This document shows, in pieces, positions 2,318-10,371 of a DNA stretch of 64,000 nucleotides (the first letter of the stretch is position 1; every line of letters starts with the position of its first letter). The DNA comes from Escherichia coli (lineage in GTDB: Bacteria > Pseudomonadota > Gammaproteobacteria > Enterobacterales > Enterobacteriaceae), in assembly GCF_003018255.1 (NCBI RefSeq), contig NZ_CP027440.1, one strand, 5' to 3'. The notes under the pieces are model-generated. The model was given only the letters and a program-made list of their open reading frames with translations, was not told the origin of the DNA and did no database searches. The translations under genes were made by a program, and so were the position numbers.

Positions 2318-2414
2318 ACAACGCCGAAGATGTTTTGGCGGATGAGAGAAGATTTTCAGCCTGATACAGATTAAATCGACATGTCATAACGAGACGTGTT
2401 GATAAAACAGAATT

Positions 2415-2534
2415 TGCCTGGCGGCCTTAGCGCGGTGGTCCCACCTGACCCCATGCCGAACTCAGAAGTGAAACGCCGTAGCGCCGATGGTAGTGTGGGG
2501 TCTCCCCATGCGAGAGTAGGGAACTGCCAGGCAT
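2415..2534 (+). rRNA. rrfE: 5S ribosomal RNA
   Basis: 120-nt match to E. coli 5S rRNA, from tgcctggcggcc to gaactgccaggcat. Confidence 0.96.
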
Positions 2535-2545
2535 CAAATTAAGCG

Positions 2546-2573
2546 AAAGGCCATCCGAAAGGATGGCCTTTTT
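2546..2573 (+). terminator. rrn operon intrinsic terminator
   Basis: GC-rich hairpin aaaggccatcc-gaaa-ggatggccttt followed by a T tract, immediately after 5S. Confidence 0.85.
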
Positions 2574-2657
2574 GCATTGGCGCAGAAAAAATGCCGGATG
2601 CGACGCTGGCGCGTCTGCTCCAGCTTACGCAAGCACGATAGCACGATAGGGGGCAGC

Positions 2658-3101
2658 TTATTCCCCTACATATGCCAGATTCAGCAATGGATACGGTTTC
2701 CCCAAATCGTCCACCTCAGAGCGTCCCGTAACCTTAAAACCCATCTTCTTATAGAACCCAACAGCCTGCTTATTTTGCTCATTAACATTGGTTGTCAGTT
2801 CCGGTGCCATCGAGAGCGCATGTTCCACCAGCATCCGACCCACGCCGCAGCCGCGCACATCAGGATCGATAAACAGCGCATCCATATGCTGCCCACTTAA
2901 CAACATAAACCCAACCGGCCGATCCCGCTCATTAACCGCGACCCACAACGGCGCTTCCGGCAGGAAGGAACGAACTAGCTCCTCCAGCTCGGCCCGATAC
3001 GCTGCTGATAAAAAATCGTGAGTGGCATCGACAGAACGACACCAAATCGCAACGAGCTCCTCCCCTTCCTCATGCCGTGAGCGGCGAATACTAATAACCA
3101 T
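2658..3101 (-). CDS. yjaB: GNAT-family N-acetyltransferase YjaB
   Basis: 147-aa ORF with the acetyl-CoA binding motif region (RGCGVGRMLVEHAL); position between rrn and metA as in E. coli. Confidence 0.9.
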   Translation of the reverse strand: MVISIRRSRHEEGEELVAIWCRSVDATHDFLSAAYRAELEELVRSFLPEAPLWVAVNERDRPVGFMLLSGQHMDALFIDPDVRGCGVGRMLVEHALSMAPELTTNVNEQNKQAVGFYKKMGFKVTGRSEVDDLGKPYPLLNLAYVGE

Positions 3102-3214
3102 TTTCTCTCCTTTTCGTCATTCTTATATTCTAACGTAGCCTTTTCCTTGAAACTTTCTCACCTTCAATATGCAGGCTCGACATTGGCAAATTTTCTGGTT
3201 ATCTTCAGCTATCT

Positions 3215-3245
3215 GGATGTCTAAACGTATAAGCGTATGTAGTGA
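3215..3245 (+). promoter_or_regulatory. Tandem MetJ boxes in the metA promoter
   Basis: Consecutive 8-bp met-box-like repeats (gatgtcta aacgtata agcgtatg) just upstream of the metA start; MetJ consensus is AGACGTCT. Confidence 0.6.
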
Positions 3246-3257
3246 GGTAATCAGGTT

Positions 3258-4187
3258 ATGCCGATTCGTGTGCCGGACGAGCTACCCGCCGTCAATTTCT
3301 TGCGTGAAGAAAACGTCTTTGTGATGACAACTTCTCGTGCGTCTGGTCAGGAAATTCGTCCGCTAAAGGTGCTTATCCTTAACCTGATGCCGAAGAAGAT
3401 CGAAACTGAAAATCAGTTTCTGCGCCTGCTTTCAAACTCACCTTTGCAGGTCGATATTCAGCTGTTGCGCATCGATTCCCGTGAATCGCGCAACACGCCC
3501 GCAGAGCATCTGAATAACTTCTACTGTAACTTTGAAGATATTCAGGAACAAAACTTTGATGGTCTGATAGTTACCGGCGCGCCGCTGGGCCTGGTGGAGT
3601 TTAATGATGTTGCTTACTGGCCGCAGATCAAACAGGTGCTGGAGTGGTCGAAAGATCACGTCACCTCGACGCTGTTTGTCTGTTGGGCGGTCCAGGCCGC
3701 GCTCAATATCCTCTACGGCATTCCTAAGCAAACCCGCACCGACAAACTCTCTGGCGTTTACGAGCATCATATTCTCCATCCTCATGCGCTTCTGACGCGT
3801 GGCTTTGATGATTCATTCCTGGCACCACATTCGCGCTATGCTGACTTTCCGGCAGCGTTGATTCGTGATTATACCGATCTGGAAATTCTGGCGGAGACAG
3901 AAGAAGGGGATGCCTATCTGTTTGCCAGCAAAGATAAGCGAATTGCCTTTGTGACGGGCCATCCCGAATATGATGCGCAAACGCTGGCGCAGGAATTTTT
4001 CCGCGATGTGGAAGCCGGACTAGACCCGGATGTACCGTATAACTATTTCCCGCATAATGATCCGCAAAATACACCGCGAGCGAGCTGGCGTAGTCACGGT
4101 AATTTGCTGTTTACCAACTGGCTCAACTATTACGTCTACCAGATCACGCCATACGATCTACGGCACATGAACCCAACGCTGGATTAA
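3258..4187 (+). CDS. metA: Homoserine O-succinyltransferase
   Basis: 309-aa ORF starting [47 protein letters not shown], recognised as E. coli MetA. Confidence 0.96.
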
Positions 4188-7414: not shown

Positions 7415-9331
<1,917 letters not shown>

Positions 9332-9347
9332 ATCAGAGGCGAAAAAG

Positions 9348-10172
9348 TCAGCGTATTCCACCGTACGCCAGCGTCACTTCCTTCGCCGCTTTAATCACCA
9401 TCGCGCCAAACTCGGTCACGCGGTCATCGGTAATACGTGAAATCGGTCCGGAAATTGAAATTGCGGCAAACGGTTCGCGGTGCTCATCGAAAATACACGC
9501 TGCAAGGCAACGCAGCCCCAGCGCATGTTCCTCATCGTCAAATGAATAACCCCGTTTGCGCGTTTGGGCGAGATCTTCTTTTAAATGCACAGGAGACACC
9601 AGCGTTGCGTGGGTATAGGCATGTAACCCTTTGCGGTGCAGCAGCTTCGTCACCTGTTCTTCGCTCAGTTGGGCCAGAAAGGCTTTACCCGCACCGGAAG
9701 CGTGCATCGGCAATTTACCGCCGATAGGCGCGGACATTCGCATCAGGTGAGTACACTGTACCTGGTCGATAATAATCGCTTCGTGATTGCTTTGATCAAG
9801 CACCGCCATATTGACCGTTTCGCCAGACTCTTCCATTAGATTGCGCAGGATAGGGTGAACAATCGCTAACAAATTACGGCTCTGGAGAAAGCTGCTACCG
9901 ACCATAAAGGCGTGTGCGCCGATTGCCCAGTGACCCAGTTCGCCGACCTGACGGACAAAGCCCTGTTGCTGCATCGTGGTTAGCAGGCGGTGGGTCGTGG
10001 AATTGGGTAACCCGGCTTGCTGTGCCAGTTCCGTGAGTGCCACACTGCCATTGGATTCGGCAATCCACTCCAGTAATTTCAGGCCACGCGTTAAAGACTG
10101 AACCTGTCCAGTCGCTGGTGCGGTGGCAACGGCGGGTTTTCTGCCGCGTTTTGCGGGAATGGGTGCGACCAT
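9348..10172 (-). CDS. iclR: Glyoxylate-shunt repressor IclR
   Basis: ORF-track 9348..10211; start moved to MVAPIPAKRGRKPAVATAPATGQVQSL (274 aa), the known IclR N-terminus. Confidence 0.94.
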   Translation of the reverse strand: MVAPIPAKRGRKPAVATAPATGQVQSLTRGLKLLEWIAESNGSVALTELAQQAGLPNSTTHRLLTTMQQQGFVRQVGELGHWAIGAHAFMVGSSFLQSRNLLAIVHPILRNLMEESGETVNMAVLDQSNHEAIIIDQVQCTHLMRMSAPIGGKLPMHASGAGKAFLAQLSEEQVTKLLHRKGLHAYTHATLVSPVHLKEDLAQTRKRGYSFDDEEHALGLRCLAACIFDEHREPFAAISISGPISRITDDRVTEFGAMVIKAAKEVTLAYGGIR

Positions 10173-10371
10173 GACAGTCTCCTTTTTCTGTATCGTGGAA
10201 ATCATTTTCATTTTTATTGTTAGCTAATGCAATAGTTGCTGAACTGATCCGATGAGTTAATGTTGAACAAATCTCATGTTGCGTGGTGGTCGCTTTTACC
10301 ACAGATGCGTTTATGCCAGTATGGTTTGTTGAATTTTTATTAAATCTGGGTTGAGCGTGTCGGGAGCAAGT

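What the first reader, a model, noticed from the sequence alone, without database searches (positions are those of the whole stretch)
2575..2657. No yjaA gene between the 5S rRNA gene and yjaB
In K-12, yjaA sits between rrfE and yjaB. Here only about 120 bp separate the 5S 3' end from the yjaB stop, with no ORF. yjaA is another Clermont phylotyping marker, so together with the arpA result this points away from a K-12-like lineage; the spacer also has a short direct repeat gcacgatagcacgatag (2634-2650).
Basis: partly seen in the sequence, partly recalled or inferred. Interest (0 to 1): 0.25.

Follow-up and report, generated by a model that had tools for sequence, protein, structure and literature searches.

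The report
yjaA-negative rrnE–yjaB spacer allele
This E. coli window has no yjaA gene between its rrnE 5S rRNA gene and yjaB, only a 125-bp spacer; this is the ordinary "yjaA-negative" form found in about half of all E. coli and already used for strain typing.

Summary
The 5S rRNA gene ends at 2532 and the yjaB stop codon is at 2658-2660, leaving a 125-bp spacer. yjaA is absent from this spacer and from the rest of the 64-kb window. K-12 does carry yjaA at this position.

The spacer is not a clean deletion. It replaces about 520 bp of K-12 sequence with:
- an rrn "T2-type" terminator hairpin (2546-2571);
- a decayed REP element (2593-2624);

Positions 2533-2628 are homologous to the K-12 rrnA trailer.

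Among 5,426 complete E. coli genomes, 2,594 carry yjaA, and 2,592 of them carry it at the canonical junction. A further 2,803 carry the short spacer. The window's genome therefore almost certainly lacks yjaA entirely. arpA is also missing, because aceK abuts iclR, so the window is not a K-12-like (phylogroup A) lineage.

yjaA sits at the same position in Kosakonia, Phytobacter and Superficieibacter. The gene is therefore probably ancestral and has been lost repeatedly. In E. whittamii the segment looks recently imported by recombination.

This is a known marker polymorphism of low interest.

The parts
2417..2532 (+). 5S rRNA gene of the rrnE operon. It reads ...GGCGGCCTTAGCG... where K-12 rrfE has CAGTAGCG.
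   Evidence: Rfam RF00001, 93.2 bits, full length; alignments.
2533..2628 (+). Generic rrn trailer segment (T2-type terminator, linker, REP). It is homologous to the trailer of rrnA in K-12.
   Evidence: blastn: query positions 1-96 match K-12 4040803-4040899 at 90.7%, between rrfA and mobB, with 3-4 places per genome; alignment A3.
2546..2576 (.). Intrinsic terminator hairpin AAAGGCCATCC-GAAA-GGATGGCCTTT followed by a T run. It ends rrnE on the + strand and probably also ends yjaB on the - strand.
   Evidence: The terminator scan calls it on the - strand (11 pairs). The + strand shows the same stem followed by TTTTT. Fold -23.3 kcal/mol, z -5.4. The same hairpin position is conserved in all alleles and genera.
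2593..2624 (.). Decayed REP-like element GCCGGATGCGACGCTGGCGCGTCTGCTCCAGC. Other alleles keep the better palindrome ...GCGTCTTATCCAGC.
   Evidence: Alignment A3. Weak naRNA4/REP model match of 18.4 bits, below the 59.5 gathering score. Fold z only -1.4. The resemblance to the REP consensus is from my own knowledge.
2633..2648 (.). 8-bp tandem duplication GCACGATA x2, a lineage-restricted indel.
   Evidence: positions; single copy in O157:H7 and E1V33, absent or diverged in KE40, L725 and CFSAN027346; about 615 complete genomes give ungapped 61-nt matches of 90% or more, others match with an 8-nt gap.
2658..3101 (-). yjaB (GNAT acetyltransferase). The last codon differs from K-12 (…VGE* here, …VGA* in K-12), which marks the right edge of the replaced segment.
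9332..9347 (.). aceK-iclR junction without arpA.
   Evidence: ORF list; same layout annotated in JNE23-011; arpA reverse primer absent.

Best explanation
The window carries the common yjaA-negative allele of the rrnE-yjaB intergenic region of E. coli. In place of the K-12 segment (a distinct terminator hairpin, yjaA, and a second hairpin; about 520 bp) it has a 125-bp spacer. The spacer consists of a T2-type intrinsic terminator, a decayed REP element and about 33 bp of unique sequence with a lineage-specific 8-bp slippage duplication. The spacer has no gene. Its role is to terminate rrnE transcription, and probably also the convergent yjaB transcript. The two alleles are an old dimorphism. 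yjaA at this exact position is the older architecture of Enterobacteriaceae and has been lost repeatedly. The alleles are passed between lineages by homologous recombination through the conserved rRNA and yjaB/metA flanks. Shown here: absence of yjaA, the anatomy of the spacer, allele frequencies, synteny in other genera, and the mosaic identity in E. whittamii. Inferred: the direction of change (loss rather than gain), terminator function, and the recombination mechanism for this particular lineage.
For: Absence of yjaA. K-12 layout. Replacement rather than deletion: the window and K-12 are identical through the 5S gene plus CATCAAATTA, then unalignable until the last codon of yjaB; only the terminator flanks (CAAATTA ... 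TTTTTGCAT) align better than shuffles (1 of 1000). Frequencies among 5,426 genomes: yjaA in 2,594, canonical junction in 2,592, short spacer in 2,803. Terminator. Paralogy to the rrnA trailer. yjaA between the 5S T2-type hairpin and yjaB, in the same orientation, in Kosakonia sp. S29, Phytobacter diazotrophicus and Superficieibacter electus (65-69% aa identity, E 1e-50 to 1e-53), with a conserved upstream motif TTTTTGCGT...GCATGATAAAGGAAT...CATG; Phytobacter massiliensis lacks it. Recombinational transfer: E. whittamii is 99.6% identical to K-12 over the 5S-to-yjaA-to-yjaB interval and 98.7% over yjaB, but only 93.2% over metA and 93.1% over the metA-aceB intergenic region plus the 5' part of aceB. 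The nearest genome, JNE23-011, has the identical spacer and is annotated rrf-yjaB with nothing between.
Against: Only 64 kb of this genome is available, so genome-wide absence of yjaA rests on population statistics and not on the strain itself. The direction of change is not proven. Salmonella, Citrobacter, Klebsiella, Pluralibacter and Kluyvera, which include the closest genera to Escherichia, all lack yjaA. An acquisition of yjaA in Escherichia by recombination from a Kosakonia-like donor would therefore also fit. The contigs for E. albertii and several others end too close to yjaB to score. No remnant of yjaA is detectable in the spacer. Terminator activity was not measured.
Confidence: 0.85

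Rival explanations
1. yjaA is a late acquisition. The short spacer (generic rrn trailer plus REP) would be the ancestral Escherichia state. The yjaA cassette, with its own terminator hairpin, would have been imported into some E. coli lineages (A, C, B2, clade I) from another enterobacterial genus and then spread by recombination.
For: All sampled members of Salmonella, Citrobacter, Klebsiella and Kluyvera lack yjaA and have T2 plus a REP-like element before yjaB, like the window. The short allele is paralogous to the rrnA trailer, as expected of an undisturbed rrn trailer. The K-12 allele has an atypical terminator stem (CCCCGGTCC...GGCCGGGG) not seen in the other genera. E. whittamii shows that the cassette does move by recombination.
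Against: The same gene sits in the same slot and orientation, with a conserved upstream motif, in three other genera. Its protein divergence (65-69%) is in proportion to that of the neighbouring YjaB (78%). Within Phytobacter one species has it and one does not, which shows that loss does occur.
Confidence: 0.3
2. The short allele arose by ectopic recombination or gene conversion between rrn operons. A conversion tract starting in the 23S/5S genes of an rrnA-like operon would have run out into its trailer (T2, linker, REP) and resolved illegitimately near the yjaB stop, deleting yjaA in one step.
For: Homology of 96 nt at 91% to the rrnA trailer, ending exactly at the REP tail (CCAGCYTAC). Some yjaA-negative strains (strain 81, KE40) even carry the complete rrnA/rrnB-like T1, 5S remnant and T2 arrangement (168 bp extra) downstream of rrnE. 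The window's 23S-5S spacer differs from that of its nearest relative at the same operon, which shows ongoing rrn homogenisation.
Against: yjaA-positive outgroups also have a T2-type hairpin directly after the 5S gene, so T2 need not have come from another operon. The origin of the 33 bp between the REP and yjaB is unexplained. No junction microhomology could be shown; the AGAAAAAAT match is not significant (38 of 1000 shuffles).
Confidence: 0.25
3. The apparent absence is an assembly artefact, such as a collapse or mis-join at a repeated rRNA operon, and the real genome has yjaA here.
For: rRNA operons are classic sites of assembly error. The 23S-5S spacer of the window is an unusual variant.
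Against: The identical 125-bp spacer joined to the same yjaB is present in independent complete genomes (JNE23-011 at 100%). Homologous short alleles occur in 2,803 complete genomes. The spacer's right part (2629-2657) is unique to this locus and contiguous with yjaB.
Confidence: 0.01

Closest known systems
yjaA-negative genotype of the Clermont triplex/quadruplex E. coli phylotyping PCR
   Same: There is no yjaA gene and no primer sites, and arpA is also negative. Under the published table this combination fits F or some B2 profiles and excludes A/C (K-12-like).
   Different: The PCR scheme records only presence or absence. Here the sequence of the negative allele is resolved (terminator, REP, 8-bp duplication). 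chuA and TspE4.C2 lie outside the window, so no phylogroup can be assigned.
K-12 rrnA trailer (rrfA-mobB interval) and the rrnB T2 terminator
   Same: The same hairpin family (GGCCATCC-loop-GGATGGCC plus a T run), the same linker TTTTTGCATTGGCGCAGAAAAAAAT and the same REP, at 91% identity over 96 nt. The similarity to rrnB T2 is from memory only.
   Different: In the window the hairpin directly follows the 5S gene. K-12 rrnA, and some yjaA-negative rrnE alleles, have T1 plus a 5S remnant (about 168 bp) in front of it. The loop sequence differs (GAAA against TGAC or GTCA).
K-12 rrfE-yjaA-yjaB interval (yjaA-positive allele)
   Same: The same flanks: the 5S gene plus CATCAAATTA on the left, yjaB from its penultimate codon on the right, and a terminator at the same position followed by TTTTTGCAT.
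   Different: The K-12 interval is 520 bp with a different hairpin stem, the 127-aa YjaA gene (NCBIfam NF041448 'YjaA family stress response protein') and a second hairpin. None of this is detectable in the window.

Membership tests
Clermont yjaA-negative / arpA-negative genotype | No amplifiable yjaA target (primers CAAACGTGAAGTGTCAGGAG and AATGCGTTCCTCAACCTGTG, 211 bp) | tested here: met
   No site at up to 4 mismatches in the window; 211-bp product in the K-12 control (primers from PMC9854720). Only the 64-kb window was tested. The rest of the genome is covered by inference: yjaA is at the canonical junction in 2,592 of 2,594 genomes.
Clermont yjaA-negative / arpA-negative genotype | No arpA target (aceK-side forward primer plus arpA reverse primer, 400 bp) | tested here: met
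   Forward primer at 8933 in aceK; reverse primer absent; aceK and iclR are 16 bp apart.
Clermont yjaA-negative / arpA-negative genotype | chuA and TspE4.C2 status, needed to name the phylogroup | not testable with these tools
   There are no primer sites in the window. These loci lie elsewhere on the chromosome, so absence from the window is uninformative.
YjaA family (NCBIfam NF041448) | An ORF whose product matches the YjaA profile or K-12 YjaA | tested here: not met
   tblastn of K-12 YjaA against the window gives a best E of 4.9. The mechanical ORFs in the spacer have no Pfam match.
Intrinsic (Rho-independent) terminator, rrn T2 type | G+C-rich hairpin followed by a T/U run directly downstream of the last rRNA gene | tested here: met
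   11-pair stem at 2546-2571, T run 2569-2576, -23.3 kcal/mol, z -5.4; homologous hairpin after the 5S gene in all compared alleles and genera.
Intrinsic (Rho-independent) terminator, rrn T2 type | Transcripts actually end there | not testable with these tools
   Needs 3'-end mapping.
REP (repetitive extragenic palindromic) element | Imperfect palindrome matching the E. coli REP consensus, located between convergent genes | tested here: inconclusive
   Position 2593-2624 lies between convergent rrnE and yjaB. The sequence starts with GCCGGATGCGACGC, but the 3' arm is mutated (GCTCCAGC instead of TATCCGGC). Fold z is -1.4. The Rfam naRNA4 (REP-derived) match is 18.4 bits against a 59.5 threshold. 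Better preserved copies occur in other alleles and in the rrnA trailer.

The most novel reading that the evidence does not exclude
The yjaA +/- dimorphism may not be a simple clade marker. It may be an ancient polymorphism at the rrnE trailer that crosses species boundaries. Under this reading yjaA is ancestral to Enterobacteriaceae, has been lost repeatedly (possibly through rrn-trailer conversion), and is re-introduced across Escherichia species by homologous recombination through the rRNA and yjaB/metA flanks, as in E. whittamii. The marker would then be intrinsically homoplasic.
Probability: 0.45. Interest if true: 0.2.

Novelty: already known. Interest (0 to 1): 0.08.

Why it matters
The finding has practical value only. 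It tells the annotator that this window comes from an arpA-negative, yjaA-negative E. coli, so not phylogroup A or K-12-like. It also confirms that nothing is missing or mis-assembled downstream of rrnE. Two observations are a modest caution for people who read yjaA PCR results as strict phylogenetic signal: the negative allele is a replacement with an rrnA-like trailer, and the yjaA cassette can cross species by recombination. Neither changes current understanding.

Tried and rejected
1. I looked for yjaA remnants in the spacer and across the window with tblastn and word-7 blastn. Nothing scored better than E of about 1.

2. I tested whether the right flank of the K-12 allele (AGAAAAAAT...GCCTACGC) is homologous to the window's linker and REP tail, which would define a clean insertion site. 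The local alignment is only the 9-mer, and 38 of 1000 shuffles reach it, so I dropped it as unsupported.

3. I ran a low-threshold Rfam scan of 2500-2720. There are only sub-threshold matches; the best is the Pseudomonas rnk leader at 25 bits against a threshold of 55, which I take as chance.

4. I ran Pfam on the two mechanical ORFs overlapping the spacer, with no hits.

5. I searched the literature for a description of the rrnE-yjaA-yjaB junction. Seven papers mention the genes, and none of the six listed titles or abstracts concerns the locus; I opened only PMC9501238, for its single yjaA mention. YjaA appears only in a gene list under 'cell adhesion and biofilm formation' (PMC9501238).

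6. I could not assign a phylogroup, because chuA and TspE4.C2 lie outside the window.

7. I could not check the nearest complete genome (JNE23-011) for yjaA directly, because the hit tables list at most 60 records. I used the count argument instead.

Full report
**What is in the window.** The left end of the window is the 3' part of an rRNA operon. The 23S rRNA runs from 1 to 2317 and is cut at its 5' end, and the 5S rRNA lies at 2417-2532 (Rfam). On the minus strand, a 147-aa GNAT acetyltransferase ORF occupies 2658-3101. It matches the NCBIfam equivalog for YjaB (PRK10514, 3e-83). metA (3258-4187), aceB, aceA and aceK follow. The nearest complete genome, E. coli JNE23-011, is annotated purH, 16S, tRNA-Glu, 23S, 5S, yjaB, metA, aceBAK, iclR, metH. 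The operon is therefore rrnE. The gap between the 5S gene and the yjaB stop codon is 125 bp (2533-2657).

**Check of the observation.**
- The window has no trace of it. tblastn with YjaA and sensitive blastn with the whole K-12 rrfE-yjaB interval find nothing significant in 64 kb.
- The Clermont yjaA primers have no site at up to 4 mismatches, although they give the expected 211-bp product on the K-12 locus (primer sequences from PMC9854720).
- The repeat is real.
- The repeat is a true duplication. Homologous spacers of O157:H7 and Escherichia sp. E1V33 have one copy, while strain 81 shares the two copies.
- About 615 complete genomes give ungapped matches of 90% or more across it. Others align with an 8-nt gap.
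- Two mechanical ORFs overlap the spacer. They have no family match and cannot be conserved, because alleles differ by 8-bp and 1-bp indels.

**Anatomy: a replacement, not a clean deletion.** The window and K-12 are identical through the 5S gene and the next few bases (CATCAAATTA). They are then unalignable until the last codon of yjaB, which reads …VGE* here and …VGA* in K-12. The window's 125 bp consist of five parts:
- 2533-2545: a short 5S trailer.
- 2546-2571: a strong hairpin, AAAGGCCATCC-GAAA-GGATGGCCTTT, with its T run extending to 2576. It folds at -23.3 kcal/mol with z -5.4. The simple scan also calls it as a terminator on the minus strand, so it can serve both the rrnE and the convergent yjaB transcripts.
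- 2572-2592: a linker.
- 2593-2624: a decayed REP-like palindrome.
- 2625-2657: sequence unique to this locus, containing the 8-bp duplication.

Positions 2533-2628 are 91% identical to the trailer of rrnA in K-12, which lies between rrfA and mobB. They match 3-4 places per genome. The left two-thirds of the spacer is therefore the generic rrn trailer. Some yjaA-negative strains (strain 81, KE40) additionally carry the T1 terminator plus a 5S remnant (168 bp) before this hairpin, exactly as K-12 rrnA does. K-12's own rrnE terminator sits at the same place and shares the flanks CAAATTA…TTTTTGCAT (only 1 of 1000 shuffles aligns as well). Its stem, however, is different.

**Population frequency.** The collection holds 5,426 complete E. 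coli genomes.

| Feature | Genomes | Source |
|---|---|---|
| yjaA DNA present | 2,594 (48%) | |
| Canonical yjaA-yjaB junction | 2,592 | |
| Short spacer, at least 80% covered | 2,803 | |

The gene is therefore essentially never anywhere else. The two alleles account for all but about 30 genomes. A genome with the short allele, like this one, almost certainly has no yjaA at all. The state is ordinary, because every second E. coli has it.

**Lineage.** arpA is absent as well. aceK (7607-9331) is followed after 16 bp by iclR (9348-10211). Only the aceK-located forward primer of the arpA PCR has a site. In the Clermont table reproduced in PMC9854720, K-12 is arpA+ yjaA+, and arpA-/yjaA- occurs only in F or some B2 profiles. 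Over 24 kb the window is about 97.5% identical to K-12 derivatives and 99% or more to only 44 records. The spacer itself is identical only to JNE23-011 and one other genome. The phylogroup cannot be named, because chuA and TspE4.C2 lie outside the window.

**Which state is older.** A scan of one genome per species with YjaB returned the homologous locus from many Enterobacteriaceae.
- *With yjaA.* A YjaA homologue (65-69% aa identity, E 1e-50 to 1e-53) sits between the 5S T2-type hairpin and yjaB, in the K-12 orientation, in Kosakonia sp. S29, Phytobacter diazotrophicus and Superficieibacter electus. The upstream motif (TTTTTGCGT…GCATGATAAAGGAAT…CATG) is recognisably the same as in K-12.
- *Without yjaA.* Salmonella enterica subsp. 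arizonae and diarizonae, Citrobacter, Klebsiella, Pluralibacter, Kluyvera and Phytobacter massiliensis lack it. They usually have a REP-like element instead.

Conserved position, orientation and upstream motif, together with divergence in proportion to the neighbouring YjaB (78%), make 'old gene, repeatedly lost' the better reading. The alternative is a late import into Escherichia from a Kosakonia-like donor, and it is not excluded, because the genera closest to Escherichia all lack the gene.

**Evidence that the cassette moves by recombination.** In E. whittamii, the 5S-to-yjaA-to-yjaB interval is 99.6% identical to K-12, yjaB is 98.7% identical and the yjaB-metA spacer is 99.4% identical. 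In contrast, metA is 93.2% identical, and the metA-aceB intergenic region plus the 5' part of aceB is 93.1% identical, which is the level expected between species. This mosaic shows a recent exchange of the yjaA-yjaB block between E. coli (a K-12-like allele) and E. whittamii. One end probably lies in the rRNA operon and the other near the metA start. The same mechanism would explain the patchy distribution of yjaA among E. coli phylogroups. In the window, yjaB is more diverged from K-12 (95.9%) than metA (96.9%) or aceB (97.4%), as expected if the yjaB end is linked to an old allele class.

**Comparison with what is known, and verdict.** Presence or absence of yjaA is one of the four markers of the standard E. 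coli phylotyping PCR, and hundreds of papers use it (404 matches). YjaA is annotated as a stress response protein. The finding is therefore a correct reading of a known polymorphism. Nothing in the spacer suggests a new gene, RNA or system. Rfam finds no match at or near threshold, and there is no protein family match. The details added here are descriptive refinements:
- replacement rather than deletion;
- an rrnA-like trailer;
- an optional T1 plus 5S remnant;
- the 8-bp slippage polymorphism;
- deep synteny of yjaA;
- the import in E. whittamii.

Interest is low.

Noticed in passing
window 2375-2405 (23S-5S spacer): The 23S-5S internal spacer carries a variant hairpin (…AAATCGACATGTCATAACGAGACGTGTTGATAAAAC…). 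K-12, O157, L725 and even the otherwise near-identical JNE23-011 rrnE have …AAATCAGAACGCAGAAGCGGTCTGATAAAAC…. A similar variant is seen in Superficieibacter electus. This probably reflects exchange between rrn operons of different spacer types.
   Followed up: partly
L010 (Escherichia whittamii Sa2BVA5) 3001-4035, compared with L001: The 5S-to-yjaA-to-yjaB interval (99.6%) and yjaB itself (98.7%) are nearly identical to K-12, while metA and aceB next door are 93% identical. This indicates a recent inter-species recombinational import of the yjaA block.
   Followed up: partly
window 9332-9347: aceK (7607-9331) and iclR (9348-10211) are only 16 bp apart, so arpA is absent. The Clermont arpA forward primer site lies in aceK at 8933, and there is no reverse site.
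   Followed up: yes
window 7418-7579: Two tandem naRNA4 (REP/BIME-derived) matches above the Rfam gathering score (78 and 72 bits) lie in the aceA-aceK intergenic region.
   Followed up: no
L004 (strain 81) 133-300; L006 (KE40) 133-300: Some yjaA-negative E. coli have an extra 168 bp after the rrnE 5S gene. It consists of a T1 terminator plus the 3' remnant of a second 5S gene, as in K-12 rrnA. The negative allele therefore comes in at least two lengths.
   Followed up: partly
L011 (E. coli-labelled SCPM-O-B-8794) 3445-3570: This locus has a third, unrelated spacer sequence downstream of yjaB, neither the yjaA type nor the window's type, and a divergent YjaB C-terminus. About 30 of the 5,426 complete genomes fit neither main allele.
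   Followed up: no
L025 (Phytobacter massiliensis) versus L023 (P. diazotrophicus): Within one genus, one species has yjaA and the other has only about 20 bp between the T2 hairpin and yjaB. The retained …CGCAT of the yjaA upstream motif makes this look like a clean deletion.
   Followed up: no
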